Shown here: positions 24,859 through 56,255 of the stretch, piece after piece | How the letters are laid out: every line of letters starts with the position of its first letter | Numbering within the stretch: position 1 is the stretch's first letter | NCBI GenBank assembly: GCA_018061645.1 | Contig: JAGOTT010000001.1 | Location: forward strand, 65,090 to 129,089 | From: Candidatus Moraniibacteriota bacterium | GTDB taxonomy: Bacteria > Patescibacteriota > Minisyncoccia > Moranbacterales > UBA1568 | Direction of reading: 5' to 3' | DNA: 64,000 nt | Translations under genes and position numbers: made by a program | Notes under the pieces: model-generated | Seen by the model: the letters and a program-made list of their open reading frames with translations, nothing else | Database searches by the model: none | Told to the model about the DNA's origin: nothing

Positions 24859-24890
24859 CCTGTTAGCTGTTCCTTGTTGATTGTTTCCTG
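24859..24890. repeat. Family-2 repeat copy (cctgttagctgttccttgttgattgtttcctg)
   Basis: shares ttgttgattgtt / ctgtt...cctg core with 40272-40314 and 55820-55895. Confidence 0.5.
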
Positions 24891-24891
24891 A

Positions 24892-26655
24892 TTAGAGGTA
24901 GTATCTTGGAATAATCACATTCACGATCGCATAGAGCTGGAGGAGTATCATCGCGAGCGCAAGGATTTTCAAGATCATTTCAAAAGTCTTTTCTCCATCT
25001 GTCATTCTGAGCGTAGCGAAGAATCCCGTTCCTATTTTGTCATTCTGAGCGTAGCGAAGAATCCCGAGATTCCTCGATAGACTCGGAATGACAATACCCC
25101 TTACCCACGAAACCGCAATCCCGACCCCGACGACGACAAGCACCAGATGCCCGATAAGGTTCGGCAGGAAATACCGTCCCGGCTGTCCGATGAGTACCTG
25201 TCCGGTTGCGTCGAATACGCGCCAGTCGTAGAAACGGATGGCGAACTGGAGCGAAATAATCATCCCGAGAAAAAACACGAGATACTTCCGTTCCGGCACC
25301 CGCCCCACTTTGTCATTGCGAGGGAGCACAGCGACCGCGGCAATCCAGTCCATTTTTTTCAAAACAGGCGCCAATAAATACATAAGCACCGCCACAAATC
25401 CGACGATCTCGATCCAATTGATGACCGACAGGATCCACTCCGGAATCGGTGTGTCGAGCCATCCGAAGTTTCCCCAGTACGAAAGTAACGTGTCGCGGAA
25501 TTCTCCCTGACGCATGGTCTTGTCGAGATACTTACCAATCGATTCGAGAGGGGAGTCGAACTTTGATAGAGCGGTCGCATTGGTGATCCCGATAAGATAA
25601 TCCTTCGGCACTGCAAGCAGACCGAACCCGACCAGTGTGATGGTTGTAATTCCGAGATACGCGAAAAACTTTCGCACTTTGTCATTCCGAGCTTCCTTCC
25701 TGTCATCCCGAGCGTAGTCGAGGGATCTCGTATATCGCTGATACGCCCCCCACACAAACAAAGGATACAACGCGGCAACGAGCACGATCCCCGGACCCTT
25801 CGAGAGGAGTCCGAGCACCGCGGCGATGATTGCGATAATCGCCCACTTTGTCATTCCGAGCCCCCCGTCTGTCATTCTGAGCGTAGCGAAGAATCCCGTC
25901 CCTTTGGCGGCATCTCCTTCTTTGTCATTCCGAGCGAGTTTTCGAGTCGAGGAATCTACGCTTCGTAGAAACGAAACCCCCGCATACAGGAACAACGAGA
26001 ACGAGAAAATGAGCGCGACATCGATATTTACCTGCGCTGCGGTGATAGCGAACATCGGCTGAAAAGCGACCAGCGTAGTGAAGAGTAGTGAAGTCTTTTC
26101 CGAAAGCCCGATTTTTCGCACGGTCAGATACATGAGCAGGACCGTCGCCGCACCGAAGGCAACCCCAAGCATTCGCATCGAGAAAATTCTGGTGAAGATG
26201 CTCTCATCGGAGAAGAACCGCTCGAGCCACGACGCGAAAAGGTAATAAACGGATTTCGTGCCGGACGTAGCTGTCGGACTTACGTCGACGTATCGCTTCC
26301 AGTCGTTTTCAGTGATCTGCTTTTCCAGTGATTTATCGGAAAAATTCTGTATATTTTGTCGCTCGAAGGTGAGTTCGTTGAATTTTGCGATAGAAGCGCT
26401 TTGCACCATCTCTTCCGGAAGATTCGATGTCCGGATATCTTTTGCGTCGATGAAGTATTTTCCGCTTTCGTACGCATGTATTTCCCATGTCTTCTCCTTT
26501 GGTTCCGCCCAGTGCTGTGCGGTTCCGTAATGCACCTGCTCATCCGGATTCTGGAACATCGGAATGAGAAAGCTCAAAACGGCGCCTTCAACAGCGAAAA
26601 GCGCGAGCAATGCCGCGAGCCGCATATTTGGAGTGGATATTTGCGGAAGCCTCAT
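24892..26655 (-). CDS. Polytopic GT-C (PMT-like) membrane glycosyltransferase heavily invaded by in-frame palindromic repeats
   Basis: 587 aa; loop-1 motif NPDEQVHYG (PMT FDEVHF-like); contains at least 7 family-1 repeat units all read as ARNDK/GFFATLRMTD peptides. Confidence 0.55.
   Translation of the reverse strand: MRLPQISTPNMRLAALLALFAVEGAVLSFLIPMFQNPDEQVHYGTAQHWAEPKEKTWEIHAYESGKYFIDAKDIRTSNLPEEMVQSASIAKFNELTFERQNIQNFSDKSLEKQITENDWKRYVDVSPTATSGTKSVYYLFASWLERFFSDESIFTRIFSMRMLGVAFGAATVLLMYLTVRKIGLSEKTSLLFTTLVAFQPMFAITAAQVNIDVALIFSFSLFLYAGVSFLRSVDSSTRKLARNDKEGDAAKGTGFFATLRMTDGGLGMTKWAIIAIIAAVLGLLSKGPGIVLVAALYPLFVWGAYQRYTRSLDYARDDRKEARNDKVRKFFAYLGITTITLVGFGLLAVPKDYLIGITNATALSKFDSPLESIGKYLDKTMRQGEFRDTLLSYWGNFGWLDTPIPEWILSVINWIEIVGFVAVLMYLLAPVLKKMDWIAAVAVLPRNDKVGRVPERKYLVFFLGMIISLQFAIRFYDWRVFDATGQVLIGQPGRYFLPNLIGHLVLVVVGVGIAVSWVRGIVIPSLSRNLGILRYAQNDKIGTGFFATLRMTDGEKTFEMILKILALAMILLQLYAIVNVIIPRYYL
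25000..25094. repeat. Family-1 repeats: two tandem units plus inverted partner
   Basis: tgtcattctgagcgtagcgaagaatccc x2 (25000, 25039) then gagattcctcgatagactcggaatgacaa. Confidence 0.85.
25311..25348. repeat. Family-1 repeat unit
   Basis: tgtcattgcgagggagcacagcgaccgcggcaatccag. Confidence 0.75.
25678..25729. repeat. Family-1 repeat, two tandem left-arm units
   Basis: tttgtcattccgagcttccttcctgtcatcccgagcgtagtcgagggatctc. Confidence 0.75.
25846..25955. repeat. Family-1 repeat, three tandem units
   Basis: tgtcattccgagcc.., tgtcattctgagcgtagcgaagaatccc, tgtcattccgagcgagttttcgagtcgaggaatc. Confidence 0.8.
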
Positions 26656-26694
26656 GCCAAGAGTATACTATAAAGGCTAAAAAAAGGCATTTCC

Positions 26695-27999
26695 ATGATT
26701 TCATCTGCATCGGTAAAACAAAAATTCTTCCGTCTTGCGGAGATTATACATCTCCGTCTTTTCGGGCATGGGATGGGTGAGGAGATGCGAAAATTTCTCG
26801 GAAATCTCTCGTGGTCGTTTTTCGGTGGCGTAATCGCCGCCGGGATCATGTTCGCCGTCAATATCCTTGCCGGCCGCTGGCTCGGTCCGGAGGAGTATGG
26901 GAAGTATAATCTTGTTTTTCTGATGGCGCAGGTGTTTTTCATTCCGATGCTGCTTGGAATGGATGTTTCTGCTGCGCGAGCGGTTTCGATCGCCGATGCG
27001 AACAAGGAAAAAATCAGTCGGATAATCTCCGGGTCGGTATTCGTCGTACTCGGCTCGATTGCCGTGACTGTTCCACTGCTCTTTTTCGGAAGCGATCATA
27101 TAGCTGAATTTTTTTCCGCGACCTCGGATATGGTGCTTATCGCGATATTTTTTGCTGTAGCGATAGCACTGAAAGCGCTTTTCGACGGCGCAGTGAGAGG
27201 ACTTCATTTTTTCCGTTTTCAGGCGATGACGAGAATGTTTGAAGGAATCGTGGGGATGATAATCTTTCTCGCCGCGTTTTTTTTTCTTCGCGACCACCTC
27301 TCTCTCGCCTTCTCGGTCGTCATTTCCGCGCTGCTTGTTTCTTCGATATATGTACTGAAGATGTGGGTGTTTTTTTCAGGATTTAGCATCGCATCGATAC
27401 GTGAACTTCTGCGGTACGCGAAATTTGTTGTTATCGGATCCGTGATAACGCTTATTCTCGGATATGGCGATCGCTACGTCGTGAATCGCTACCTCGGTAT
27501 CGAAGAACTCGGAATATATTCGGCCTATTACACTGCTACCATTCTTGTCGTAGGGCAATTTATCGCGATATTCGCGAATGTCTTTTTTCCGATGATCGCA
27601 AAGGTCGGAGAAAAGCGGGAAATAATGAAAAAGCTCGACCGCCTCGTCCTTATCGGGATCATCCCCGCAGTCGCGGGAATCTTTGTGATCGGTTTTCTCA
27701 TTCTCAAGCTCTTCGGCAGCGCTTATGCTGTTGATCCGCTTACGCTTCTCCTTTTCGGAGTGGTCGCGGCTCTCCAGTTCTTTGTTTCGTTTTACTCCGG
27801 TATGGTGAACGCGCATAACGAGCGGACATATTTCTGGGGACTCACTTTTTTTGCCATGAGAGCGATCGTCTATGCGGCCTACATCGTCGCGCTTATCGCT
27901 ACCAATTCGGTTACCGTTTCCGCTATTCTTGCCGGTCTTATCGTCAACTATGTTGTCGATATGTTGAATCTCCGTTATATTATAAGGAAATATGCCTGA
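26695..27999 (+). CDS. Oligosaccharide/polysaccharide flippase (Wzx-like, MOP superfamily)
   Basis: 434 aa (start may be at Met ~26773); LGPEEYGKYNLV motif; ~12 TM helices. Confidence 0.7.
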   Translation: MISSASVKQKFFRLAEIIHLRLFGHGMGEEMRKFLGNLSWSFFGGVIAAGIMFAVNILAGRWLGPEEYGKYNLVFLMAQVFFIPMLLGMDVSAARAVSIADANKEKISRIISGSVFVVLGSIAVTVPLLFFGSDHIAEFFSATSDMVLIAIFFAVAIALKALFDGAVRGLHFFRFQAMTRMFEGIVGMIIFLAAFFFLRDHLSLAFSVVISALLVSSIYVLKMWVFFSGFSIASIRELLRYAKFVVIGSVITLILGYGDRYVVNRYLGIEELGIYSAYYTATILVVGQFIAIFANVFFPMIAKVGEKREIMKKLDRLVLIGIIPAVAGIFVIGFLILKLFGSAYAVDPLTLLLFGVVAALQFFVSFYSGMVNAHNERTYFWGLTFFAMRAIVYAAYIVALIATNSVTVSAILAGLIVNYVVDMLNLRYIIRKYA

Positions 28000-30342: not shown

Positions 30343-30346
30343 ATAT

Positions 30347-34197: not shown

Positions 34198-34202
34198 ATC
34201 AG

Positions 34203-34231
34203 TGAACAGCGAACAATTAACAGTCAACAGG
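34203..34231. repeat. Family-2 repeat copy (aacaattaacagtcaacag)
   Basis: 19-mer identical to reverse complement of 40281-40299. Confidence 0.65.
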
Positions 34232-34238
34232 AGCACTG

Positions 34239-34264
34239 GATTCCCGCCTTCGCGGGAATGACAG
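34239..34264. repeat. Family-1 repeat half-element, self-complementary hairpin
   Basis: ggattcccgccttcgcgggaatgaca. Confidence 0.6.
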
Positions 34265-37855: not shown

Positions 37856-37912
37856 ATAAGAATTGCAGATTGCAGAATTAAGATTGATGAATGATGAATT
37901 GAGATTTTCGAA

Positions 37913-38887: not shown

Positions 38888-39832
38888 ATGGAAAACGGGA
38901 AACCGTATGTATCGGTGGTGGTGCCGGTATATAACGAGGAAGGGAACGTGGTCGAGTTGCACCGGCGGATCAGGGAGGCGTGCGAGAAAATCGGGCGTTT
39001 GTTCGAAATCATCCTCGTCGATGACGGATCGACGGATAAGACGGTTGAGCTGTGTCGCGGATTATCGCCTTTGACGCTTATCGGATTTCGTAGGAACTTT
39101 GGGCAGACAGCCGCCTTTGACGCGGGGATCAAGAGAGCGACTGGGGATATCGTCATCACGATGGATGGCGACCTGCAGAACGATCCGGCGGACATCCCGC
39201 TTCTTCTTGCAGAGATGGACAAGGGGTTCGATATCGTTTCCGGATGGCGCCACAAGCGCAAGGACACGCTCATGAAACGGTTCTTCTCGCGCGGGGCGAA
39301 CCTGCTTCGCAAGGGACTGGTCAAGGACGGGATCCATGATTCCGGATGCAGCCTCAAGGCATATCGGCGCGAATGCTTCGACGGGGTGGATCTGTTCGGG
39401 GAGATGCATCGGTTCATGCCGGCGCTCCTTCAGCTCGACGGTTTCCGCGTGTCCGAGGTCAAGGTCTCGCACCACCCGCGTATCCACGGCGTGACGAAAT
39501 ACAACTGGAAACGAGCGATCAAGGGATTTGTCGATATGCTCTTCATCTGGTTCTGGCGCAAGTACTCGCACCGCGCGATCCACCTCTTCGGTGGGACGGG
39601 GCTCGTGCTCGGACTTGTCGGTATCGGGCTTCTCGGATGGATGTTCGTGGAAAAAGTCTTCTTCGGCGCGTCACTTTCGGAACGCATCTGGCCTTTGGTC
39701 GGAACGCTCCTTGTCCTTGTCGGAGTGCAGCTCTTCATCTTCGGCATCCTCGTTGATGTTTCGGTGAAGACGTACTACAGCCAGCGTGGAAGAATGAATT
39801 ACAGCGTAAAACAGATAACAAATAACAGTTAA
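38888..39832 (+). CDS. GT2 polyprenol-phosphate glycosyltransferase with C-terminal TM helices (GtrB/ArnC-like)
   Basis: VSVVVPVYNEE, LVDDGSTDKT, ITMDGDLQNDP, two C-terminal TM helices; last codons (KQITNNS) lie in family-2 repeat. Confidence 0.85.
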   Translation: MENGKPYVSVVVPVYNEEGNVVELHRRIREACEKIGRLFEIILVDDGSTDKTVELCRGLSPLTLIGFRRNFGQTAAFDAGIKRATGDIVITMDGDLQNDPADIPLLLAEMDKGFDIVSGWRHKRKDTLMKRFFSRGANLLRKGLVKDGIHDSGCSLKAYRRECFDGVDLFGEMHRFMPALLQLDGFRVSEVKVSHHPRIHGVTKYNWKRAIKGFVDMLFIWFWRKYSHRAIHLFGGTGLVLGLVGIGLLGWMFVEKVFFGASLSERIWPLVGTLLVLVGVQLFIFGILVDVSVKTYYSQRGRMNYSVKQITNNS

Positions 39833-39879
39833 CAGTCAACGGGGAAGCAAAAACAACAAAAACAGTTAACGGAAAACGA
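39809..39879. repeat. Family-2 repeat / left IR of four-helix-bundle gene B
   Basis: aaacagataacaaataacagttaacagtcaac ... aacagttaacggaaaacg; IR partner at 40272-40314. Confidence 0.65.
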
Positions 39880-39897
39880 AGAAAAGAAAAAATAGGT

Positions 39898-40260
39898 ATG
39901 GAAAAGGATATCCTGAAGGAGAAGATGGATGGATTAGCGAAGGGTGTCTATGATGTGACAAAGAAATTTCCAAAGGATGAGATTTATGGAATAACATCGC
40001 AGTTGAGAAGGGCATCCTTATCGGTTATCCTGAATTATGTCGAAGGATTTGCTCGAACGGGTGACAAGGAATTGAAAAACTTTCTTCAGATATCGTACGG
40101 GTCGCTGAAAGAAACGAAATACCTTATATTTTTCTGTACCCGAGAAAAGTATATGACAAAGAAGGAGTATGGAGCTCTTATGGCGTTGACAGATGAGATA
40201 GGGGCGATGCTTTGGAAAAGAATCCAGAGCGTGAAAGGAAGAATCGCTGCTGGTAAGTGA
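39898..40260 (+). CDS. Four-helix-bundle protein (23S rRNA IVS protein family)
   Basis: 120 aa; QLRRASLSVILNYVEGF, FLQISYGSLKETKYL. Confidence 0.9.
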   Translation: MEKDILKEKMDGLAKGVYDVTKKFPKDEIYGITSQLRRASLSVILNYVEGFARTGDKELKNFLQISYGSLKETKYLIFFCTREKYMTKKEYGALMALTDEIGAMLWKRIQSVKGRIAAGK

Positions 40261-40271
40261 GTGTTCGCTAT

Positions 40272-40314
40272 AAACTGTTTTCTGTTGACTGTTAATTGTT
40301 GATTGTTAACTGTT
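40272..40314. repeat. Family-2 repeat / right IR of four-helix-bundle gene B
   Basis: aaactgttttctgttgactgttaattgttgattgttaactgtt immediately abutting ugd ATG. Confidence 0.65.
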
Positions 40315-41625
40315 ATGAAGTTGTCCTTCATCGGGACGGGGTACGTGGGGCTGGTGTCGGGGACGTGCATGGCGGAAATCGGTCACGAGGTGATCTGTGC
40401 GGATATCGACAAGAAGAAAATCGACAAGCTCAAGCGGGGAGGAATCCCGATCTATGAGTTCGGTCTCGAGGAGCTGATCAAGGAGAACGTGCGCCAGGAA
40501 CGGCTGTCCTTCACGACGGACGTGGGTAGGGCGATCCGCGAGGCGGATGTCATTTTCTCCGCGGTTGGAACGCCGCCCCATCCCAAGACCGGCGAGGCGG
40601 ATCTCCGGTACGTGTTCGCAGCGGCGGAAACCTTCGGAAAGAACCTGAACGGGTACAAGATCTTCGTGAACAAATCCACGGTCCCGGTCGGGACGGCGGA
40701 ACGGGTGCACGCCGCGATCGCGAAAGCAAGTGATGGAAAATTCGAGTTCGATGTCGTCTCGAATCCGGAATTCCTCCGCGAGGGCGCGGCGGTCAAGGAT
40801 TTCCTCAATCCGGACCGGGTCGTCGTCGGTGCGGACAGCGAGCGTGCCTGGGAGATAATGGAAAAGGTCTATCGCCCGATCGCCCGTTCGGGGCGTCCGG
40901 TGGTGCTGACCGACGTGAAAAGCGCGGAAATCATCAAATACGCGTCGAACGCATTTCTTGCGACCAAGATATCTTTCATAAACGAGATCGCCCGGTTCAT
41001 CGACAAGGCCGGCGGCAACGTGAAGGAGGTGTCACGCGGGATGGGATTCGACAGCCGGATCGGCTCGCGATTCCTCTATGCCGGTATCGGGTATGGCGGG
41101 TCGTGCTTCCCGAAGGACGTGAAGGCGCTCATCCACACGGGCAAGGAGCATGGCGTGGACTTCACCATTCTCGAAGCGGTGGAGGCGACCAATGAGAGAC
41201 AGAAGCTCCTGCCGGTCGCGCATCTGCGGAAATCGCTCAAGACGCTCAAAGGGAAGCGGATCGCGCTTTGGGGTCTTTCGTTCAAACCGCGGACCGACGA
41301 TGCGCGCGAAGCGCCGGCACTTTCGATCATCGAGGCGCTCACCAAGGCAGGGGCGTCGATTCAGGCTTTCGATCCGGTCGCGACCGAGAACGCCAAAGGA
41401 TTCATCGGCAGGAACGCGAAAGTGAAGTATGTGACGAAACAATACGATGCGCTCGACAAGGCGGATGCGCTCGTCATCGTCACCGAGTGGGATGAGTTCC
41501 GTACCGCGGATTACAAGGAGATCGGCAAGCGCATGAAAGGGCGGGTGATCGTCGATGGACGCAATATCCTCGAGCGCGAGGAAGCCGAAGCCGCGGGATT
41601 CGTTTACTATGGGGTTGGAGTCTGA
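40315..41625 (+). CDS. ugd: UDP-glucose 6-dehydrogenase
   Basis: MKLSFIGTGYVGLVSG, GGSCFPKDV catalytic Cys motif, 436 aa. Confidence 0.9.
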   Translation: MKLSFIGTGYVGLVSGTCMAEIGHEVICADIDKKKIDKLKRGGIPIYEFGLEELIKENVRQERLSFTTDVGRAIREADVIFSAVGTPPHPKTGEADLRYVFAAAETFGKNLNGYKIFVNKSTVPVGTAERVHAAIAKASDGKFEFDVVSNPEFLREGAAVKDFLNPDRVVVGADSERAWEIMEKVYRPIARSGRPVVLTDVKSAEIIKYASNAFLATKISFINEIARFIDKAGGNVKEVSRGMGFDSRIGSRFLYAGIGYGGSCFPKDVKALIHTGKEHGVDFTILEAVEATNERQKLLPVAHLRKSLKTLKGKRIALWGLSFKPRTDDAREAPALSIIEALTKAGASIQAFDPVATENAKGFIGRNAKVKYVTKQYDALDKADALVIVTEWDEFRTADYKEIGKRMKGRVIVDGRNILEREEAEAAGFVYYGVGV

Positions 41626-41642
41626 TAGACAATAGACCAAGA

Positions 41643-41655
41643 ACCAAAATCCAAT
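41643..41655. repeat. Left inverted repeat flanking four-helix-bundle gene C (accaaaatccaat)
   Basis: perfect 13-bp reverse complement at 42083-42095. Confidence 0.65.
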
Positions 41656-41671
41656 CACCAAGGAAATTCCG

Positions 41672-42043
41672 ATGACCAATGACCAATCCCCGAAAAAGAA
41701 ATTCGATCTTGAGGATCGGACGCTTGATTTTGCGAAGCGAGTCGTACGGATGTGTAAGGAGCTACCGACGAACACCGTAAACGATAATCTTGTAGATCAA
41801 GTGATCCGCTCCGCTGGTTCGGTCGGAGCGAATTATCGTGAAGCGAATGATGCGCTTGGTACGAAAGACTTTCTGATGCGTCTGAAGATTTCTCGAAAAG
41901 AGGTGAAAGAGACACATTTCTGGCTGGAGCTTATCATCGAAGCAAATCCGGATCTGAAGAAAAGAATCGAAAGCCTGTTTCAAGAATCGCTCGAGTTGAA
42001 AAAGATTCTTTCTGCTATAATCACGAAACTCCAGAATAAATGA
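41672..42043 (+). CDS. Four-helix-bundle protein (23S rRNA IVS protein family)
   Basis: 123 aa; VIRSAGSVGANYREAN, FLMRLKISRKEVKETHFWL; close paralog of 50352..50723. Confidence 0.9.
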   Translation: MTNDQSPKKKFDLEDRTLDFAKRVVRMCKELPTNTVNDNLVDQVIRSAGSVGANYREANDALGTKDFLMRLKISRKEVKETHFWLELIIEANPDLKKRIESLFQESLELKKILSAIITKLQNK

Positions 42044-42082
42044 TTCAGTGATTGTTTCTTGATGATTGATCATTATCTGGTT

Positions 42083-42095
42083 ATTGGATTTTGGT
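42083..42095. repeat. Right inverted repeat flanking four-helix-bundle gene C (attggattttggt)
   Basis: reverse complement of 41643-41655. Confidence 0.65.
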
Positions 42096-42106
42096 AATTG
42101 GTGATT

Positions 42107-43429
42107 ATGAAAGTGTTATTTCTCAATTATGAGTATCCTCCGCTCGGTGGAGGTGCGGCGAACGCGACGCGGTATATCCTGCGGGAGTTTTCGCGCATGC
42201 CGGGTGTCGAGGCACATCTCGTGACGAGCGGGATGGGGAAGGAGTATGAGAAGGAACATATCGGCGGATCCGTGTGGGTGCATCGGCTGCCGATTGGCAA
42301 GGATCCGGGAAAGATCCACTCGCAGTCGGTGCGGGATCTGATTGTCTACAGCGCGAAGGCGTGGTGGTTTTCTTCGTGGATCATCCGTACGGCGAAACGC
42401 GAGGGAAATCCCTTCGACCGGACGATTGCCTTTTTCGGGATTCCCTGCGGGGCGCTCGCTCTTTGGTTCAAGTGGCGGTTTGGTATCCCATATGTCGTGT
42501 CGCTCCGCGGGTCGGATGTCCCCGGATACAGCGAGAAGTATGACCGGCTCTATCTTTTCCTCGCGCCGTTCGTCCGGCTCGTGTGGAAGAAGGCGCTCGC
42601 GGTCGTTCCGAACAGTCGGGGGCTCGCGGAACTTGCCGGAAAGACCGCTCCGCGACAGGCATTCGAAATTATTCCGAACGGTGTGGACACGGAGGAATTC
42701 CGTCCCGATCCGGCGCGCGAACGTGACGGATATTTCCGCATACTGGCCGTGTCCCGGCTTACGCCGCGGAAGGGGATTCGATTCCTCATCCGGGCGATGT
42801 CGATACTTTCTCCGTCTGTCATTGCGAGCGAAGCGCGGCAATCCAGTGAAAAGGGAAAAGGACTGGATCGCCACGCCTCTGGCGAAGACGTCGGGGCTCG
42901 CGATGACAGATATTCGAAACTGGAACTCTGGATCGCGGGTGACGGGGAGGAGAAAGCGGAACTTGAAGTGCTCGCGAAGGAATGCGGCGTCTCCGACAAG
43001 GTGAAGTTCTTCGGGGCGGTACCGCATGAGCATCTCGGCCGATACTACGGACTTGCGGACGTCTTCTGTCTGCCGTCGCAGAACGAGGGCATGAGCAACA
43101 CCGTGCTCGAGGCGCTCGCGGCGGGGCTCCCGATCGTCGCGACGGTGACCGGCGGGACGGAGGAATTGATCCGTGACGGGGAGAACGGTCTCTTCGTCGT
43201 ACAACGGTCGCCGGAGGATCTCGCCGAGAAGCTCGGAAAACTCTTGGCCGACGAGTCACTCCGAGTGCGTATGGGAGAGGCGGGCCGGAAGCGTGCCGAG
43301 GAGATGAATTGGGAAAGCGTTGCAGGCCAATTTCTTGAGCTGTGCTCAAGAAAAAAAGCACAAATCTTAGAACACAAAGATCCAAACAAAACACAGACCA
43401 CAAAACTGAAAACTGACCGATCGGAATGA
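42107..43429 (+). CDS. Glycosyltransferase family 4 with in-frame palindromic-repeat insertion in interdomain linker
   Basis: MKVLFLNYEYPPLGGGAANA; C-terminal EGMSNTVLEALAAGLPIV; inserted peptide SVIASEARQSSEKGKGLDRHASGEDVGARDDR from repeat 42817-42908. Confidence 0.85.
   Translation: MKVLFLNYEYPPLGGGAANATRYILREFSRMPGVEAHLVTSGMGKEYEKEHIGGSVWVHRLPIGKDPGKIHSQSVRDLIVYSAKAWWFSSWIIRTAKREGNPFDRTIAFFGIPCGALALWFKWRFGIPYVVSLRGSDVPGYSEKYDRLYLFLAPFVRLVWKKALAVVPNSRGLAELAGKTAPRQAFEIIPNGVDTEEFRPDPARERDGYFRILAVSRLTPRKGIRFLIRAMSILSPSVIASEARQSSEKGKGLDRHASGEDVGARDDRYSKLELWIAGDGEEKAELEVLAKECGVSDKVKFFGAVPHEHLGRYYGLADVFCLPSQNEGMSNTVLEALAAGLPIVATVTGGTEELIRDGENGLFVVQRSPEDLAEKLGKLLADESLRVRMGEAGRKRAEEMNWESVAGQFLELCSRKKAQILEHKDPNKTQTTKLKTDRSE
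42817..42908. repeat. Family-1 palindromic repeat element, in-frame inside GT4 gene
   Basis: tgtcattgcgagcgaagcgcggcaatccagt ... ctggatcgcc...ctcgcgatgaca. Confidence 0.8.
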
Positions 43430-50268: not shown

Positions 50269-50303
50269 GCAGAGGATACAAGAGACAAGAAATGCAACGT
50301 TGG

Positions 50304-50327
50304 AAGAAACAAGGTACAAGAAACAAG
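50304..50327. repeat. Left inverted repeat flanking four-helix-bundle gene D (aagaaacaaggtacaagaaacaag)
   Basis: 22/23 match to reverse complement of 50737-50760. Confidence 0.7.
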
Positions 50328-50351
50328 ATACAAAAAATCCGAAATACGAAA

Positions 50352-50723
50352 ATGACCGAAGTGAAACAAAAAGAGAAGAGATTTGACCTGGAGGAAAGGA
50401 CGTTGGAGTATTCGAAAAGAGTTCTCCGGTTGTGCAAAAGTCTCCCAAAGAATGGTATCAATCGGGAGATGGCTGATCAGCTGTTTCGTTCCGCAAGCTC
50501 CGTCGGGGCGAATTATCGGGAAGCGAACGACGCCCTTGGTAAGAAGGATTTTGTCATGAGGATAAAGATATCCAGAAAAGAAGCGAAGGAGGCCGAGTAT
50601 TGGTTGAAGCTGGTTGCGGAAGGTAATCCTGAAATGAAAGAAAAAATGAGTGGGCTTATCGATGAAACAAAGGAGCTGCGGATGATATTTTCTTCCATAA
50701 TAAGCAAGGTTTCAGTGAATTGA
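50352..50723 (+). CDS. Four-helix-bundle protein (23S rRNA IVS protein family)
   Basis: start at MTEVKQKEKRFDLEERTLEYSKRVL aligning with paralog 41672; LFRSASSVGANYREAN. Confidence 0.9.
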   Translation: MTEVKQKEKRFDLEERTLEYSKRVLRLCKSLPKNGINREMADQLFRSASSVGANYREANDALGKKDFVMRIKISRKEAKEAEYWLKLVAEGNPEMKEKMSGLIDETKELRMIFSSIISKVSVN

Positions 50724-50736
50724 TTTTTCGTGATTT

Positions 50737-50760
50737 TTGTTTCTTGTAACTTGTTTCTTG
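50737..50760. repeat. Right inverted repeat flanking four-helix-bundle gene D (ttgtttcttgtaacttgtttcttg)
   Basis: partner of 50304-50327. Confidence 0.7.
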
Positions 50761-52308
50761 ATGATTAACGCTATGAGCTTAAGGAAAACATTGGCAGTGC
50801 TGGCGGTCATCGTTCTGATTGGGGCAGTTCTGCGCTTCTGGGGGCTTGGGAATAATCCGTTCAATGCTGATGAGTTCCTCGATATCAACTCCGCCTACGG
50901 GTACGCGCAGACGGGGGAATGGAAGGCGTGGGATTTCAATTTCGGTCAGGTGTCGGAAGTCAATATCAACCAGGCGCGTGATGAGCGTGCGAACGTGTAC
51001 AAGTGGCAGGTGGCGCAGCTCTTCTCTTTCCTTCCGCCGACGGAAGCGGTCGCGCGGAGCGTGTCGGCGCTGTGGGGCGTGTTCTCGATTCTCGCGATGT
51101 TCTTTGCCGGGTGGATGTTTTCGGGAAAGAAACGGATCGGGCTCTTCGCGGCGGCACTCTTCGCCGTATCCGTTTCCGGGATCGAGTTCGATCGCAAGCT
51201 CCGCATGTACGCGATGTTCTTTCCGCTCTTCCTTCTCATGTCCGTGTCGCTTTTCGGTCTCTACGAGCGGGAATATAAGGGCAGGATAAAAGCGCTCCGG
51301 ACCTTCTGGGAGAAGACCGACCTGAACCCCGCGTATCTCCTCCCGCTTCTCGTATCCGGATATCTTTCCTTTCAGACGCACCAGTTGTCGATCAACATCA
51401 TCCCGATTTTCGCCGTCTATGTGGTAACGATGATCGTTCTCGCTTGGCGCAGGAAACGATCCGCCGAGGACAAGTATATGGGAACCGCGGCGCTGGGGCT
51501 GGTCGTCGCGATCGTCGCGTGGACCGCGGCGCCGGAGAAGATGAAGGAACTGCTCGGCGCACTCGTGCTCTTCGATAACCATTACTCGTATTTCCGCTAT
51601 GTCGTGCGTGACTACGCGCAGCCGATCCTTGCGGCGCTTCTCTTCGGGTATGGTGCGTGGCATCTCGTGAAAAAGCTCGGAAAAGAGAAAGAGACCGCGT
51701 GGCTGCTTGTCTCGTCGCTTGTGCCGCTTGTGATGGCGGTCTGGTTCTGGCGACGCAACGAGGGACAACAATACATCTTCTTCGCGCAGTCCTTCATGGC
51801 GATACTGGTCGCTTCCGGCGGATACGGGCTCGTGCGGTTCGTGAATGACGAGTTTTCGTCCCGATGGAAGCATGCCGTGTGCGCGGCGACGCTCCTCCTT
51901 GCGGTGCTCGTTCCGAATTGGGGATACTTTTTTTGGGAAAACAACACGTATCATGAGACATCGACGGGGAGTTCGGCGAACTACCGGAAGATCTACCAGT
52001 ATTTCCGCAACAATGCGGGCGATGGCGACGCGCTCATCGCGCGGAATTTCCGCAACTACTACTGGAGCGGTACGGAGACCAAGGTACTTGATTTCGGCGG
52101 GGAACTTTCTGTCTCAAAACTTTCGGTCGGGGAAATAGAGGCGTTCATGACGAAACATCCGACCGGTTGGTTCATCGCGTCGGACAACGACATGGATTAT
52201 GTTTCGCGCGATGCGGAAATATTCATCGGGAAAAATATGGAGCGGCAGAGCCATTCGCTCATCCGGGGGAACGTTGAAGTGTGGCGGTGGGGGAAAAATA
52301 GTCTGTAA
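50761..52308 (+). CDS. GT-C fold membrane glycosyltransferase, GT39/ArnT/PMT-like
   Basis: ATG after IR (track used TTG at 50737); loop-1 NPFNADEFLDIN (PMT DE motif); ~11 TM helices. Confidence 0.65.
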   Translation: MINAMSLRKTLAVLAVIVLIGAVLRFWGLGNNPFNADEFLDINSAYGYAQTGEWKAWDFNFGQVSEVNINQARDERANVYKWQVAQLFSFLPPTEAVARSVSALWGVFSILAMFFAGWMFSGKKRIGLFAAALFAVSVSGIEFDRKLRMYAMFFPLFLLMSVSLFGLYEREYKGRIKALRTFWEKTDLNPAYLLPLLVSGYLSFQTHQLSINIIPIFAVYVVTMIVLAWRRKRSAEDKYMGTAALGLVVAIVAWTAAPEKMKELLGALVLFDNHYSYFRYVVRDYAQPILAALLFGYGAWHLVKKLGKEKETAWLLVSSLVPLVMAVWFWRRNEGQQYIFFAQSFMAILVASGGYGLVRFVNDEFSSRWKHAVCAATLLLAVLVPNWGYFFWENNTYHETSTGSSANYRKIYQYFRNNAGDGDALIARNFRNYYWSGTETKVLDFGGELSVSKLSVGEIEAFMTKHPTGWFIASDNDMDYVSRDAEIFIGKNMERQSHSLIRGNVEVWRWGKNSL

Positions 52309-52348
52309 AGTCCGTAAAGTTTCGATCGGAAATACGGTGAAAAAATGA

Positions 52349-52378
52349 AAAACCCCGGCAGATTCCTGCGGGGGTTTT
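52349..52378. terminator. Bidirectional rho-independent terminator between convergent genes
   Basis: aaaaaccccggcagattcctgcgggggtttt. Confidence 0.55.
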
Positions 52379-52391
52379 CGGTTGGAGAGAA

Positions 52392-52694: not shown

Positions 52695-52848
52695 TTTCCG
52701 TCTCCAAAAAAACTTTTAAAGTTTTAAAGAAAAAACACCCCTTTGAAGCCGACGCTCTGGCTCCGTTTCTTTATACCATTTTTTGGCCTTCATGTCAATC
52801 GCGCGTGCTTCGTGAAAGAAAAACCGCGCCGATTTTTGTCGGTGCGGT

Positions 52849-53142: not shown

Positions 53143-53210
53143 AAGAACCTCCTTTTCTCGGAAAAAAATACCGCGTCCGTAGTTCCGGGCGCGGCTGGTG
53201 GCTGATGCTC

Positions 53211-53459
53211 TCAAGCGGCGATTTTCATCCGTTCGATGATCCGCTGAGAAAGCTGCTTGGACAAGATATGCTTGCCCTCGCCTTTGAGCGCGAAGTATTC
53301 GGTGACGACCTCGTGCGTTACCACCTCGTCGATCGCCTGGCTGTTCGTGTCGTACCAGTCGGAAAAGCCGCTATGGCCGTTCTGTTCCCGGTCGAGCTTG
53401 CAGCAGATGGTGGCGTAGATGAGGTCGAGCAGAATGATTCTTTTCTCCGAGGGGTTCAC
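53211..53459 (-). CDS. Hypothetical small protein (GTG start, first gene of two-gene module)
   Basis: 82 aa; GC3 ~85%; aggaga RBS 6 nt upstream of GTG. Confidence 0.5.
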   Translation of the reverse strand: MNPSEKRIILLDLIYATICCKLDREQNGHSGFSDWYDTNSQAIDEVVTHEVVTEYFALKGEGKHILSKQLSQRIIERMKIAA

Positions 53460-53558
53460 GGAAGTCTCCTAGTGTGTGAGTTGGTAAACCAACAAAAAAA
53501 GTCCTCATCGGACCTGTGGAGTATGACAGATTTCCCGTTTTCTGTCAAGGATTCCTGA

Positions 53559-53870
53559 TTGACGGGGGAACGGTTGTCGTGGTACAAGGAAGTGTCTTCA
53601 ATGACACAGAGAGAGGGTATCGGTATGCCGCTTATCTTCGCGGGTTTCGTTCTTTTGTTTCTGATAGCGGTCTTCGCTCCGTATGTCAACGCTATCGCGG
53701 CGACATTCATCATCGCCGGCCGGTTGGTCGTCGCTTTTTTCATCAGCCTCATTCCTCTGGGCTTCCTGATTGTTTCCATCGTGGCGGTGTATCTCGGGTT
53801 TCAGGATATGCGTCGGGAGCTTCGGAGACCGAGGCGCCGAGTCGGTTCCGACGGCTTCGAAGATTTTTGA
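53559..53870 (+). CDS. Small 2-TM membrane protein, hypothetical
   Basis: start probably at internal Met (MPLIFAGF...); weak. Confidence 0.35.
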   Translation: MTGERLSWYKEVSSMTQREGIGMPLIFAGFVLLFLIAVFAPYVNAIAATFIIAGRLVVAFFISLIPLGFLIVSIVAVYLGFQDMRRELRRPRRRVGSDGFEDF

Positions 53871-53906
53871 TGCCATTCAGGCGGGTGCCGATGTACCCGC
53901 CTTTTT

Positions 53907-55379
53907 TCATGCTTGCGACTTATTCTTCGTGAAGAGTTTCCGGATCGGGTTCAGGTCGGATTCCTTCAGTTCCTTTGCCAGGAAAAGCGGGAGATAGTAG
54001 AGGACGAATAGGAATGCTCCGGAGAAGATGAATGATACGGGCTCGGAGGGGAGTATTTTCGAGAGGAGCGCGATGCCTGTCGCGGAGACAAGGGAAACGA
54101 CCCAGAGCCTCGTCGAGAGACGGACGGAGAAATGTCGCTCGGTATAGATGAGGATGGCGATCATGAGGATGAACGAGACGAGTGTGGTGGCGCCTGCCGC
54201 ACCGACGATACCGAAAGGAGGGATGAGTGCGAAATTGAGGACGAGTGCGAGCAGTACGCCGAACCCCGAGAGTTTCATCGGGATTTTCACCAGTCCGGCG
54301 CCGTTGAGCGCGAAGGCGAGGACGTAGAAGACCGTGAGGAACCCGGCGCCTACGGCGAATACGCTCATCGCGGATGCCGCGCCGAGGTAGTGGTCGCCGT
54401 AGAAGAGATGGAGGATCGGTTCGGCATAGACGGCAAGCAGCGTGACGAACGGAAAGAGGAGAAACGCCATGAGGCGGAGTGATTTCTCTACGAGCTCCCG
54501 CGTCTTTTCCGGTCCCTGGTCGGCGTTGCTTTTCGCGATCGCCGGAACCATCATGACCGCGAGCGCGTAAAAAAGGTAGTAGGGGATGCGCCCCATGGTG
54601 ATGGCGGCGTTGTAGAGACCCGTCGCGATGTCATCCCGGAGGAGCGCCTGCACGAGATACAGGTCGAGTGTGAGGACGAGCTCGTAGAAGACGAGGAAGA
54701 GCGTGAACGGCCAGGCGTATGAGAGCAGGAGTTTTCCGGGGAATGTGAAGTCCTGCCCCGGTTCCTGCGGGAAGGATTTTTTCGTGATGATCCAGTCGGC
54801 GACGAGACCGACGAAGAAGACCGAGAGCGGTGCCAGGATGTAACCGGAAACCGATCCCGGGAGACCGAAGAGGAACGCGAGCCCGACGATGAAGAACAGA
54901 CGCGCGAAGGAGCGGATGATCTTGAGCGTCGCCTGGAAGCGGAAATAGTGGAGTCCGTTGAAATAGTGGAGATAAAAGGACGCGGCGGCGAAGGCGGGAA
55001 TGATGAGTGAGGAAAGCGCGAAAAGCGAAGCCAGCTCCGGGTCGCCGAGAAGCTGGGCGATGAGCGGGGAAGCGAGAAAGAATATCACGGTGAGGCTCCC
55101 CATGATGAGCGCCTGGAGTCTCATACCGACCCGCTTGATGACCGGAACCTTCCAGGGGGCGTTTTCGAAGACTTCGGAGAGGTATTTCGACATCGCGGTC
55201 GGGAGGCCGTTTCCGACGAGTACGATGATCATGGTCGTGAGCGTGATGACGAGCCCGTAGCGACCGTAGTCGGCGGGACCGAGAATCCGTCCGACGGAGG
55301 CGTGGACGATGTAGCTCGCGATATTGAAGACGATCTCGGAAGCGGTGAGCCACACGAGTGCGCGTGAGAAGTTTTTCAT
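53907..55379 (-). CDS. Oligosaccharide flippase (Wzx-like, MOP superfamily)
   Basis: 490 aa, 12-14 TM; N-terminal GRILGPADYGRYGLV motif. Confidence 0.75.
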   Translation of the reverse strand: MKNFSRALVWLTASEIVFNIASYIVHASVGRILGPADYGRYGLVITLTTMIIVLVGNGLPTAMSKYLSEVFENAPWKVPVIKRVGMRLQALIMGSLTVIFFLASPLIAQLLGDPELASLFALSSLIIPAFAAASFYLHYFNGLHYFRFQATLKIIRSFARLFFIVGLAFLFGLPGSVSGYILAPLSVFFVGLVADWIITKKSFPQEPGQDFTFPGKLLLSYAWPFTLFLVFYELVLTLDLYLVQALLRDDIATGLYNAAITMGRIPYYLFYALAVMMVPAIAKSNADQGPEKTRELVEKSLRLMAFLLFPFVTLLAVYAEPILHLFYGDHYLGAASAMSVFAVGAGFLTVFYVLAFALNGAGLVKIPMKLSGFGVLLALVLNFALIPPFGIVGAAGATTLVSFILMIAILIYTERHFSVRLSTRLWVVSLVSATGIALLSKILPSEPVSFIFSGAFLFVLYYLPLFLAKELKESDLNPIRKLFTKNKSQA

Positions 55380-55619
55380 AAGCCCATTCTATCGGAAATC
55401 GTCGGAAAAAGAAAAAACCGTTCTATCCGGACGGTTTTCATGTGTGGGTGGAAACGGAAATCCGGGGGACGGTATAGGTCGGAACCATGAAGAGAAATTC
55501 GCCCGGCATCGGCTGATGCCTCCACGCGCGGCCTCGTCTTCCGCTTGTGGATCACCGTTCGCCCGAATCGCCGTTTCCGGGGGAGATGATAGGGTAAATG
55601 CAGGCATCTGTCAATAGGC

Positions 55620-56255
55620 TCAGGGTAATTCGACGGTTTTTCGGATCTCGTCGGCAATGACTTCTTTCGGCCCATCCGCGTCGATGACGACCATGTTCCA
55701 GTCGGAGACCATTTTCTTGAAGAGATCTGTTTTGGCATGGAGATATTCCTCGCCCTGCTCCGGGGCGCGCTCGCGGCCCATGATGACTCCCGGGTCGATG
55801 TCGAAATATAAGGCGATATCAGAAACAGGTAACAAATAGCAGATAACAGATAGCAAAAGACCCCGTTTCCTGTTTCCTGTTGACTGTTCACCGTTGGCTG
55901 ATCGGAGGTATTCGATATTGATAATCGAGTCGTAGAACGAACGGTCGGAAAGCAGATAGTCGAAATGCTCTTTCCTGAGTTTGCGGAGGAGAAGTCGGAA
56001 GCGGAGAAAATCGAGGAAGAGAAATTTCTCCCGCAGGACTATAGAACACCAGGAAGCCTTCGTGACAGCCTTTTCTTTCCCGGGTTCGAATTTTTGTACT
56101 CCTCTGAAAAGCCGCGCGATCCGGTTCGCGTACGAAAACTCGACCGCGTTGAATACGGCGACTTTCTTATCTCTGCCTTCAAGGTATTCTTTGAGGAGCG
56201 CGAGCTGGGTGCTCTTGCCGCTCCCATCCACACCGGAAAGAGTGATATATCTCAT
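55620..56255 (-). CDS. tmk: Thymidylate kinase with in-frame family-2 palindromic insertion
   Basis: MRYITLSGVDGSGKSTQ P-loop, SDRSFYDS, LYFDIDPGV; ~25 aa insert NGEQSTGNRKRGLLLSVICYLLPVSD encoded by repeat 55820-55895. Confidence 0.65.
   Translation of the reverse strand: MRYITLSGVDGSGKSTQLALLKEYLEGRDKKVAVFNAVEFSYANRIARLFRGVQKFEPGKEKAVTKASWCSIVLREKFLFLDFLRFRLLLRKLRKEHFDYLLSDRSFYDSIINIEYLRSANGEQSTGNRKRGLLLSVICYLLPVSDIALYFDIDPGVIMGRERAPEQGEEYLHAKTDLFKKMVSDWNMVVIDADGPKEVIADEIRKTVELP
55820..55895. repeat. Family-2 palindromic repeat inside tmk
   Basis: gaaacaggtaacaaatagcagataacag...ccccgtttcctgtttcctgttgactgttcaccgtt; arms gaaacagg/cctgtttc. Confidence 0.65.

What the first reader, a model, noticed from the sequence alone, without database searches (positions are those of the whole stretch)
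24859..55895. Second dispersed repeat family (AACAGTTAACAGTCAAC-like), including an in-frame palindrome inside thymidylate kinase
Copies occur at 24859, 34203, 39809, 40272 and 55820. The 19-mer aacaattaacagtcaacag is identical at 34218 (+) and 40281 (-). The copy in tmk forms a palindrome (gaaacagg...cctgtttc) that adds ~25 residues between conserved Tmk motifs without breaking the frame. Another copy supplies the last seven codons (KQITNNS) of a GT2 gene. These repeats also double as the IRs of one four-helix-bundle cassette.
Basis: seen in the sequence. Interest (0 to 1): 0.55.

Follow-up and report, generated by a model that had tools for sequence, protein, structure and literature searches.

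The report
Heptamer-repeat arms of IVS-like gene cassettes
The AACAG-type repeats are tandem 7-base arrays that form the inverted, stem-forming arms of a small four-helix-bundle gene cassette, the same design as the intervening sequence of 23S rRNA but here wedged between protein genes, and an ORF-less hairpin version sits in frame inside thymidylate kinase and has spread between related bacteria.

Summary
AACAGNN arrays lie at 24859-24890, 34198-34231, 39806-39846, 40268-40314 and 55822-55898. AACAGNNAACAG with up to 1 mismatch gives 25 hits against 1.5 expected.

It is not a fixed-sequence family. It is one flavour of period-7 tandem arrays (15 in the window, 0.5 expected). All four TIGR02436/PF05635 four-helix-bundle genes here are flanked by inverted arrays, each with its own unit. 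So are 86% of 79 homologous loci from many phyla, with periods 7, 8 or 9 and arms that co-vary.

The Coxiella 23S IVS has the same gene, stem and GACAGAT heptamers, and RNase III excises it. None of the loci here lies in rRNA.

GT2-ugd relatives show empty sites of 3-25 nt against 482 nt here.

The tmk palindrome is no artefact: ten homologues carry it, six checked at DNA level. It replaces a native segment, for a net gain of 3-8 residues, not 25. Its distribution is polyphyletic, and it is more conserved at nucleotide level than its flanks.

RNase III processing is inferred only.

Verdict: a new variant of known kinds (IVS, RPE-like in-frame palindromes). Interest 0.6.

The parts
24859..24890 (-). 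Solo AACAGNN array of about 5 units. It begins right after the stop codon (24892-24894) of the PMT-family glycosyltransferase gene 24892..26655 (-). The motif TACCTCTAATCAG at 24888-24900 matches the left end of the tmk element.
   Evidence: The hairpin with CCTGTT at about 24832 is only weak (z -1.3).
34198..34231 (+). Solo array. It reads AACAG on the + strand and CTGTTNN on the sense (-) strand of asnB. It abuts the asnB start codon (ATG at 34197-34195, giving MCGI...). It contains the exact 19-mer at 34212-34230.
39806..39846 (+). Left (5') arm of cassette 1: AACAGAT AACAAAT AACAGTT AACAGTC AACGG. It contains the last 7 codons and the stop codon of the GT2 gene (38888..39832).
   Evidence: 35 nt of it are identical in orthologous locus L006.
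39857..39875 (+). Inner left-arm segment (AAACAGTTAACGGAAAACG). In the minimum-free-energy fold it pairs with 40268-40281.
39898..40260 (+). Four-helix-bundle protein of cassette 1 (120 aa), a member of TIGR02436 / PF05635 (23S_rRNA_IVP).
   Evidence: (E 8e-29), (PDB 2gsc, E 2e-11). Against the L006 orthologue, 32 codon differences are synonymous and 8 non-synonymous.
40268..40314 (+). Right (3') arm of cassette 1, made of (NNCTGTT)n units and complementary to the left arm. It ends exactly at the ugd start codon (ATG 40315). It contains the reverse complement of the 19-mer at 40282-40300.
   Evidence: Fold of 39790-40330: -151 kcal/mol, z -6.4.
55859..55898 (-). 5' arm of the tmk element, of AACAGNN type on the sense (-) strand. 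It encodes the hydrophilic stretch ANGEQSTGNRKRG, which AlphaFold2 models as a low-confidence loop (residues 122-131).
55822..55858 (-). 3' arm of the tmk element, of NNCTGTT type on the sense strand. It encodes LLLSVICYLLPVS, which is modelled as helix 132-140 followed by the conserved LP..D motif.
55620..56254 (-). Thymidylate-kinase-family gene (211 aa from ATG 56254). Its product is identical to P0001, which is annotated as Candidatus Moranbacteria KBD19_00570.
41625..42106 (+). Cassette 2. Left arm 41625-41654 (ACCAANN-type units) starts at the ugd stop codon. The 4HB ORF is 41672-42043. The right arm 42078-42106 (TTGGTNN) abuts the next gene's ATG at 42107.
50303..50762 (+). Cassette 3. 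Left arm 50303-50338 (AAGAAAC / AAGGTAC units). The 4HB ORF is 50352-50723. The right arm is 50727-50762, and the next gene starts at 50761 or 50773.
2926..3358 (-). Cassette 4, whose arms have period 9 (TAAAGTCNN). The left arm 3358-3337 contains the stop codon (3348-3346) of the upstream gene 3346..5154. The 4HB ORF is 3328-2981. The right arm is 2960-2926.

Best explanation
The AACAGNN repeats are tandem heptamer arrays. They form the two inverted arms of a small cassette that carries a single gene for a four-helix-bundle protein (S23p / TIGR02436).

The cassette has the design of the ORF-bearing intervening sequence (IVS) of 23S rRNA. Here, however, it sits in the very short spacers between co-directional protein genes. 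It fits so tightly that its arms overlap the upstream stop codon and abut the downstream start codon.

Shown here:
- The anatomy of the cassettes.
- The complementarity of the two arms, which is specific to each cassette.
- Nucleotide-level conservation of the arms.
- Purifying selection on the ORF.
- Filled versus empty sites in relatives.
- The generality of the design across phyla.

Inferred, by analogy with the Coxiella and Leptospira IVS:
- Once the operon is transcribed, the arms pair into a stem of about 30-45 bp.
- RNase III cuts this stem. That would release the 4HB mRNA and separate the flanking cistrons.
- Tandem units would let the stem re-form in shifted registers after slippage.

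The solo arrays (24859-24890, 34198-34231) and the ORF-less hairpin in tmk are derivatives of the same kind of arm.

The tmk copy is an old, translated, RPE-like in-frame element. Its AACAG arm encodes a disordered hydrophilic loop. Its CTGTT arm encodes a hydrophobic helix plus the LLP motif, which replaces the native helix. The segment has been exchanged horizontally between Moranbacteria tmk lineages, either by homing-like insertion or by allelic recombination. It is now kept mainly as coding sequence, and its hairpin is thermodynamically weak.
For: Window:
- AACAGNNAACAG gives 25 hits against 1.5 expected. Period-7 arrays number 15 against 0.5 expected, and no such excess appears at periods 5, 8 or 10.
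- The window holds four PF05635/TIGR02436 ORFs, and each is flanked by inverted arrays with its own unit.
- In the cassette 1 fold the arms pair end to end (z -6.4). The arms of cassette 3 also pair.

Other genomes:
- In 79 4HB loci from many phyla, the inverted-repeat score between the two flanks has a median of 15.5, against 8.0 in 286 shifted controls. 86% of loci exceed the control 95th percentile.
- The arms have period 7 in 34 loci, 9 in 14 and 8 in 13.
- Arms from the same locus score 15.5 against 7.5 for arms paired across loci (p 9e-38), so the two arms co-vary.
- 39 of 53 cassettes have the same orientation as both neighbouring genes.

Published precedent:
- The Coxiella IVS has an S23p ORF and terminal inverted repeats that form a 28-bp stem.
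- It has tandem heptamers GACAGAT whose copy number varies between strains.
- RNase III excises it (PMC4990558).

Insertion:
- The gap between GT2 and ugd is 3-25 nt in L087, L088, L089, L094 and L096. It is 449 nt in L006 and 482 nt here, where the cassette sits.
- In L101 a different cassette, with 9-nt arms, follows the same GT2 gene.

Selection:
- The cassette 1 ORF differs from its L006 orthologue by 32 synonymous and 8 non-synonymous codon changes.
- 35 nt of the left arm are identical between the two loci.

tmk:
- Ten of 120 homologues carry the heptamer form at the same site, and their DNA keeps the AACAGNN/NNCTGTT periodicity.
- Each of two heptamer-form genes has a native-form gene among its closest relatives. 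P0003/P0005 flanks are 87/84% identical, about the same as P0003 against heptamer-form P0002 (86/81). P0008/P0115 flanks are 87/93% identical. Between these two pairs identity is only about 70%.
- The 21 nt AATATCGAATACCTCCGATCA are 100% identical in all five genes compared. In the 3' arm, third codon positions are 71-93% identical, against 36-69% in the flanks.
- The AlphaFold2 model places the segment as a loop (122-131) followed by a helix (132-140), just before the strand that corresponds to PDLTFYIDV of solved Tmk structures.
Against: - No transcript or cleavage data exist for this organism, so the RNase III step rests on analogy alone.
- The G.U versus A.C mismatch asymmetry expected for a sense-strand RNA stem is absent (75 against 89, p 0.31). 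Pairing at the DNA level is therefore not excluded.
- The minimum-free-energy fold of cassette 2 uses its arms only partly.
- The tmk hairpin is not more stable than shuffled sequence (z -0.65 to -2.2). An RNase III cut there would destroy an essential mRNA.
- No target-site duplication or recombinase was found.
- Solo arrays have no demonstrated origin from cassettes.
- The tmk tree is a rough neighbour-joining tree built on about 170 columns.
Confidence: 0.6

Rival explanations
1. The arms act at the DNA level. On this reading the inverted tandem arrays are extruded as hairpins or cruciforms in single-stranded or supercoiled DNA. They would serve as the recognition or recombination structure that moves the cassette and its ORF-less hairpin, much as attC sites of integron cassettes, REP/RAYT elements or IS200/IS605 ends do. 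Any RNA stem would be a by-product.
For: - Filled and empty sites occur in relatives, and a different cassette sits at the same GT2 3' end in L101.
- The tmk element is polyphyletic, and a 21-nt flank appears to have been co-converted with it.
- Arm mismatches show no G.U bias.
- Other small palindromes nest in or next to arrays: at 34238-34263, at 56963-57057, and in L092 and L095.
Against: - No integrase, RAYT or TnpA gene lies in or beside any cassette. The only ORF is the 4HB protein.
- Arm sequences differ between cassettes within one genome, which fits poorly with a sequence-specific enzyme acting in trans.
- No target-site duplication was seen.
- The strong bias towards the orientation of both neighbours (39 of 53) points to a constraint at the transcript level.
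Confidence: 0.22
2. The arrays are neutral simple-sequence repeats, like the STRR heptamers of cyanobacteria, made by replication slippage in A-rich gene ends. Their resemblance to each other and their position next to 4HB genes would have no functional meaning.
For: - Unit number differs between orthologous arms in the window and L006 and between Coxiella strains, which shows that slippage occurs.
- Solo arrays exist.
- The native GT2 tail AAAGAAATAATTAATAAT is already A-rich and resembles an array.
Against: - Slippage cannot explain why the two arms of each cassette are complementary to each other but not to arms of other cassettes (p 9e-38).
- It cannot explain why 86% of 4HB genes across phyla have such arms.
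- It cannot explain why arms are more conserved than synonymous sites.
Confidence: 0.08
3. The tmk segment is an ordinary, vertically inherited part of this Tmk family that only happens to resemble the repeat. Alternatively, it is an assembly artefact.
For: - All homologues have a segment of similar length at this position.
- The 3' arm evolves mainly by synonymous change, as normal coding sequence does.
Against: - The segment is found in independent assemblies from several sources.
- Heptamer periodicity is kept at the DNA level.
- Close relatives carry an unrelated native sequence at the same place.
- Third-position and 21-nt flank identity far exceed the rest of the gene.
- The 12-mer AACAGTCAACAG is shared with the cassette arm and with the asnB array.
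Confidence: 0.04

Closest known systems
ORF-bearing intervening sequence (IVS) of 23S rRNA, of the S23p type (Coxiella burnetii, Leptospira, Brucella)
   Same: - One small PF05635/S23p four-helix-bundle ORF.
- Complementary termini that form a stem of about 28 bp or longer.
- Tandem heptamers upstream of the ORF. Coxiella has GACAGAT and this window has AACAGAT/AACAGTT.
- Repeat number varies between strains.
- The element lies embedded in a longer transcript (PMC4990558).
   Different: - These cassettes lie between protein-coding genes, and in some related loci between tRNA genes, not in helix 9, 25 or 45 of 23S rRNA. The window has no Rfam hit, and none of the 80 related loci has an LSU rRNA hit.
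- The ORF here is under purifying selection, whereas the Coxiella ORF is reported to be decaying.
- RNase III cleavage has not been tested here.
Rickettsia palindromic elements (RPEs) and other intragenic MITE-like palindromes
   Same: A repeated palindromic element is inserted in frame into a housekeeping enzyme gene. It is translated, tolerated, and kept in related species (PMC10969869).
   Different: - The element is about 80-105 nt and is built from tandem heptamers, not a roughly 150-bp element encoding a conserved peptide.
- It replaces a native segment instead of simply adding residues.
- The same tmk site holds at least three unrelated repeat classes in different lineages.
- It belongs to a different phylum (Patescibacteria).
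- No sequence relationship to RPE families was tested.
Cyanobacterial STRR tandem heptanucleotide repeats (STRR3 CAACAGT, STRR2 TTGGTCA).
   Same: Tandem heptamers whose units are essentially the same as here (AACAGTC/AACAGTT; TTGGTNA in the arms of cassette 2). They lie mostly at gene boundaries.
   Different: - The host phylum is different.
- No link between STRR repeats and four-helix-bundle cassettes or inverted pairing is known to me.
- The library searches for STRR/CAACAGT and for small dispersed repeats with heptameric repeats in Nostoc listed nothing relevant among their top-ranked papers.
Avd accessory protein of diversity-generating retroelements
   Same: The protein has the same four-helix-bundle fold family (weak PF22296 and NF033474 hits).
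   Different: The scores are below the curated cut-offs (34 against 80 bits). No reverse transcriptase or template/variable repeat pair is associated with the cassettes.

Membership tests
23S rRNA IVS (S23p type) | Carries an ORF of the S23p / PF05635 / TIGR02436 family | tested here: met
   all four ORFs score above the curated cut-offs. PDB 2gsc XCC0516, E 2e-11.
23S rRNA IVS (S23p type) | Complementary termini that form a long stem enclosing the ORF | tested here: met
   Cassette 1 z -6.4. Cassette 3 arms pair. 86% of 79 loci exceed controls. Arms are specific to their own locus. Cassette 2 pairs only partly.
23S rRNA IVS (S23p type) | Tandem heptameric repeats in the 5' region, as reported for Coxiella | tested here: met
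   for the window. PMC4990558 reports GACAGAT x3.
23S rRNA IVS (S23p type) | Located inside the 23S rRNA gene (helix 9, 25 or 45) | tested here: not met
   The Rfam gathering scan finds no rRNA in the window and no LSU rRNA in the 80 related loci. The neighbours are GT2, ugd, asnB and similar genes.
23S rRNA IVS (S23p type) | Excised from the precursor RNA by RNase III | not testable with these tools
   This needs RNA-end mapping or an in vitro cleavage assay. The indirect G.U asymmetry test was inconclusive.
RPE-like in-frame palindromic insertion | Multi-copy palindromic repeat inserted into a protein-coding gene without breaking the frame | tested here: met
   The 211-aa Tmk is intact and identical to P0001.
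RPE-like in-frame palindromic insertion | Absent from orthologues in close relatives, so that it counts as an insertion and not an ancestral feature | tested here: met
   The native-form genes P0005 and P0115 are among the closest relatives of the heptamer-form genes P0003 and P0008 (84-93% flank identity). 110 of 120 homologues lack the heptamer form.
RPE-like in-frame palindromic insertion | Lies in a structurally permissive, surface-exposed part of the protein | tested here: inconclusive
   The AlphaFold2 model (pLDDT 84) gives a low-confidence loop at 122-131 and a helix at 132-140. Surface exposure and enzyme activity were not measured.
MITE (miniature inverted-repeat transposable element) | Terminal inverted repeats, target-site duplication, and a cognate IS transposase | tested here: not met
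   Inverted arms are present. No target-site duplication appears when filled and empty GT2-ugd sites are compared. No transposase lies next to the cassettes. Arm sequences are not shared between cassettes.
DGR Avd | Scores as the Avd equivalog and lies next to a reverse transcriptase and TR/VR repeats | tested here: not met
   NF033474 scores 34 bits against a cut-off of 80. PF22296 scores 38.8 against 40. The flanking genes are GT2 and ugd.
Known anti-phage defence systems (PADLOC) | Match to a defence-system protein model | tested here: not met
   No hit at E <= 0.01 for any of the four 4HB proteins.

The most novel reading that the evidence does not exclude
Four-helix-bundle (S23p) cassettes with co-evolving inverted tandem-repeat arms (periods 7-9) may form a widespread class of mobile elements embedded in operons and tRNA clusters, which I could not find described as a class. 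The classical 23S rRNA IVS would be only its rRNA-resident minority. ORF-less hairpin derivatives of these arms could invade coding sequence and spread horizontally to one specific site of tmk. That site is a recurrent target for at least three unrelated repeat classes in Moranbacteria. This would amount to a homing-like behaviour for a non-autonomous hairpin.
Probability: 0.4. Interest if true: 0.75.

Novelty: new variant of a known kind. Interest (0 to 1): 0.6.

Why it matters
The origin and function of 23S rRNA intervening sequences and of the S23p / four-helix-bundle family have been open questions since the 1990s.

None of the 80 sampled loci lies in rRNA. At least in this sample, most family members therefore sit outside rRNA, yet they keep the same stem-plus-tandem-repeat design, with arms that co-vary. 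If that holds generally, the IVS is a special case of a general cassette. Its biology then becomes testable in ordinary operons: RNase III processing, mRNA decoupling, and whether the pentameric protein binds its own arms.

The tmk case extends the Rickettsia idea of 'selfish DNA in protein-coding genes' to the reduced genomes of the candidate phyla radiation. It also offers a natural experiment in which a hairpin arm was recruited as a structural helix of an essential enzyme.

For annotation there are two practical points:
- Peptides such as VNSKQST...LLLSVICYLLP or KQITNNS in CPR proteins are footprints of repeats.
- Gene ends next to 4HB genes may be encoded by cassette arms.

Tried and rejected
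- Rfam gathering scans of the window and of the 80 related loci found no known RNA family on the arrays and no LSU rRNA.
- PADLOC gave no defence-system match for the 4HB proteins.
- Library searches found no description of non-rRNA cassettes with tandem-repeat arms. The terms tried were heptamer plus IVS protein, PF05635, TIGR02436, 'four helix bundle protein', STRR/CAACAGT, and small dispersed repeats. Only the Coxiella paper mentions the heptamers. This is absence of evidence within one library only.
- The G.U versus A.C mismatch asymmetry test, meant to separate an RNA stem from a DNA stem, was not significant and is confounded by base composition and by register ambiguity.
- Folds of the tmk hairpin in four lineages gave z -0.65 to -2.2. 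The idea that it is a strong, conserved RNA stem was rejected. The 5' arm changes without compensation, while the 3' arm changes mostly at synonymous sites.
- No target-site duplication was seen at the GT2-ugd site.
- An earlier tblastn with a mis-framed Ugd query gave misleading weak hits. It was redone correctly.
- The 6-nt TACCTC match between the PMT gene end and the tmk element is not significant on its own once 1 mismatch is allowed (3 matches against 0.78 expected).
- The idea that the array 'adds 25 residues' was rejected.


Full report
**1. Observation**

The five copies are present.
- The 19-mer AACAATTAACAGTCAACAG is exact at 34212-34230 (+) and 40282-40300 (-). With up to 3 mismatches it has 7 matches against 0.01 expected.
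- AACAGNNAACAG with up to 1 mismatch has 25 matches against 1.54 expected.
- TRF and a lag-7 autocorrelation scan show that every copy is a tandem array of 7-nt units.
- The window holds 15 period-7 arrays against 0.53 in composition-matched shuffles. Periods 5, 8 and 10 show no excess.
- Many of these arrays use other units: ACCAANN, AAGAAAC, GGTATNN, GGGAACN.

The 'family' is therefore one sequence flavour of a broader class.

**2. Organism and genes**

The Tmk protein is identical to P0001, which is annotated as Candidatus Moranbacteria (Patescibacteria/CPR). The neighbouring genes encode a GT2 glycosyltransferase, UDP-glucose dehydrogenase, asparagine synthase, a PMT-family transferase and a Wzy-type polymerase.

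**3. What the arrays belong to**

The window encodes four TIGR02436/PF05635 four-helix-bundle (4HB, 'S23p') proteins: 39898-40260, 41672-42043, 50352-50723 and 3328-2981 (-). Cassette 1 matches PDB 2gsc.

Each ORF is flanked by inverted tandem arrays:
- Cassette 1 uses AACAGNN. These are the arrays in the finding.
- Cassette 2 uses ACCAANN on the left and TTGGTNN on the right.
- Cassette 3 uses AAGAAAC and AAGGTAC.
- Cassette 4 uses the 9-mer TAAAGTCNN.

Folding:
- In the fold of cassette 1 the arms pair end to end (-151 kcal/mol, z -6.4).
- The arms of cassette 3 also pair.
- The arms of cassette 2 pair only partly.

Position and orientation:
- All four cassettes have the same orientation as both neighbouring genes.
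- They are wedged into the gene boundaries. The left arm contains the upstream stop codon in cassettes 1 and 4 and starts at the stop codon in cassette 2.
- The right arm ends at or near the downstream ATG (40315, 42107, and 50761 or 50773).

**4. Generality**

I fetched 80 loci that encode relatives of these proteins from GTDB species genomes of many phyla.
- The best inverted repeat between the 150 nt upstream and downstream of the ORF scores a median of 15.5, against 8.0 for 286 shifted controls. 86% of 79 loci exceed the control 95th percentile.
- The arms are tandem arrays of period 7 in 34 loci, 9 in 14 and 8 in 13.
- Pairing the left flank of one locus with the right flank of another drops the median to 7.5 (p 9e-38). 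What is conserved is therefore complementarity, not sequence: the two arms co-vary.
- 39 of 53 cassettes with two callable neighbours are co-oriented with both.
- None of the 80 loci lies in a 23S rRNA gene. Four abut tRNA genes.

**5. Link to known biology**

The Coxiella burnetii 23S IVS carries an S23p ORF. It is bordered by inverted repeats that form a 28-bp stem, and three tandem heptamers GACAGAT lie upstream of the ORF. Their number varies between strains. RNase III excises the element within the stem (PMC4990558). The cassettes here share all of these sequence features except the rRNA location. Processing by RNase III is therefore the most likely mechanism, but it is inferred. The G.U versus A.C asymmetry test did not favour the sense RNA strand (75 against 89).

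**6. Evidence for insertion**

- GT2 and ugd are adjacent in at least ten relatives.
- The spacer is 3-25 nt in L087, L088, L089, L094 and L096.
- It is 68-203 nt, with other small repeats, in L086, L092, L095 and L098.
- It is 449 nt in L006 and 482 nt here, where it holds the cassette.
- In L101 a cassette of the other subfamily, with 9-nt arms, follows the same GT2 gene.
- Between the window and L006 the 4HB ORF shows 32 synonymous and 8 non-synonymous codon differences, and 35 nt of the left arm are identical.
- No target-site duplication was seen.
- The GT2 tail is NYSVKQITNNS here and NYSIKEIINN in orthologues without an array. The array overlaps the tail but does not lengthen it.

**7. 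The tmk palindrome**

Length and distribution:
- The gene is intact (211 aa).
- Among 120 homologues the segment between NIEYL and YFD is 29-52 residues long. Native forms have 32 or 37 residues, for example SDSWIVRVGLFFLEALLPKAD.
- The heptamer form has 40-47 residues and occurs in ten clusters.
- The net gain is therefore 3-8 residues.
- The same site holds a GC-rich palindrome that encodes ...FPRKRES..WIPAFAGMT in five clusters, and a (TTGGAAA)n array that encodes GNWKLEIGNWKL in two.

DNA level:
- The DNA of six heptamer-form genes keeps the AACAGNN/NNCTGTT units.

Polyphyly:
- The form is polyphyletic on a neighbour-joining tree.
- Each of two heptamer-form genes has a native-form gene among its closest relatives. 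P0003/P0005 flanks are 87/84% identical and P0008/P0115 flanks are 87/93% identical.
- Between these two pairs identity is only about 70%.

Nucleotide conservation:
- Nevertheless the 21 nt AATATCGAATACCTCCGATCA are identical in all five genes compared.
- Third positions of the 3' arm are 71-93% identical, against 36-69% in the flanks.

This pattern indicates horizontal exchange of the segment, either by homing-like insertion or by allelic recombination with co-conversion.

Fold and structure:
- The hairpin itself is weak (z -0.65 to -2.2).
- The 5' arm varies without compensatory change, whereas the 3' arm changes mostly at synonymous sites.
- AlphaFold2 (pLDDT 84) models the 5' arm as a disordered loop (122-131) and the 3' arm as helix 132-140. 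The next strand corresponds to PDLTFYIDV of solved Tmk structures.

**8. Solo arrays**

The array at 24859-24890 follows the stop codon of the PMT-like gene. The array at 34198-34231 abuts the asnB ATG in the 'right-arm' orientation. Their origin as cassette remnants is a conjecture.

**9. Verdict**

The element is best filed as a new variant of known kinds: an IVS-type S23p cassette outside rRNA, plus an RPE-like in-frame hairpin (PMC10969869).

I found no description of the general non-rRNA architecture in the searchable library. That does not prove novelty.

Noticed in passing
window 56914-56950, 56963-57057, 57149-57179 (inside Wzy-type gene 56294..57802 +): The O-antigen-ligase-like gene carries two heptamer arrays in direct orientation (units TTTCGTA/GGTATCT and GCGTATT). 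Between them lies a palindrome of about 95 nt (arms GTCATTGCGAGCGT...ACCCTCGCAATGAC). All of this is in frame and encodes ...VIASVAKQSREKD...LTLAMT.... The orthologue in L001 has the same kind of array at 9230-9273.
   Followed up: partly
window 34238-34263: The GC-rich palindrome GGATTCCCGCCTTCGCGGGAATGACA lies directly beside the asnB heptamer array. In one reading frame it translates to WIPAFAGMT, the same peptide that fills the tmk hotspot in P0006, P0029 and P0077. Small palindromes seem to nest in or next to tandem arrays. L092 and L095 show the same at the GT2-ugd spacer.
   Followed up: partly
Tmk homologues P0050 and P0083 (protein level): A different heptamer array, (TTGGAAA)n, which translates to GNWKLEIGNWKL, occupies the same tmk site. 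This one loop has therefore been taken over by at least three unrelated repeat classes.
   Followed up: partly
L026 2320-2906; L023 2803-2873; L059 2937-3007; L078 2972-3044: Several 4HB cassettes from other phyla sit directly beside tRNA genes, and in L026 between two of them. They are thus embedded in stable-RNA transcription units other than rRNA.
   Followed up: no
L006 (CAYVDI010000004.1, labelled 'uncultured Bdellovibrionales'): This contig carries the orthologous GT2-cassette-ugd locus, with protein identities of 91%, 91% and 93% to the window (GT2, 4HB, Ugd). It is probably a Moranbacteria contig that was binned or labelled wrongly.
   Followed up: no
window 52300-52320 and 3337-3358: The 9-nt unit AGTCCGTAA, which is the unit of the left arm of cassette 4, recurs as a 2.3-copy tandem array at the 3' end of ORF 50737..52308. 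This is a solo 9-mer array far from cassette 4.
   Followed up: no
window 1203-1233, 7645-7681, 37862-37907, 43386-43417: Further period-7 arrays with other units (GGGAACN, AAATNAA, ATTGCAG/AATGATG, AAAACTG) lie at or near gene boundaries, with no 4HB gene beside them.
   Followed up: no
L004 9681-9747; L003 316-414: ORF-less palindromic heptamer hairpins occur in relatives. One (GATTCTG.../...CAAAATC) lies inside the Wzy_C gene of L004 (8470-9942), and another lies in the ORF upstream of tmk in L003. In-frame heptamer hairpins are therefore not confined to tmk.
   Followed up: no
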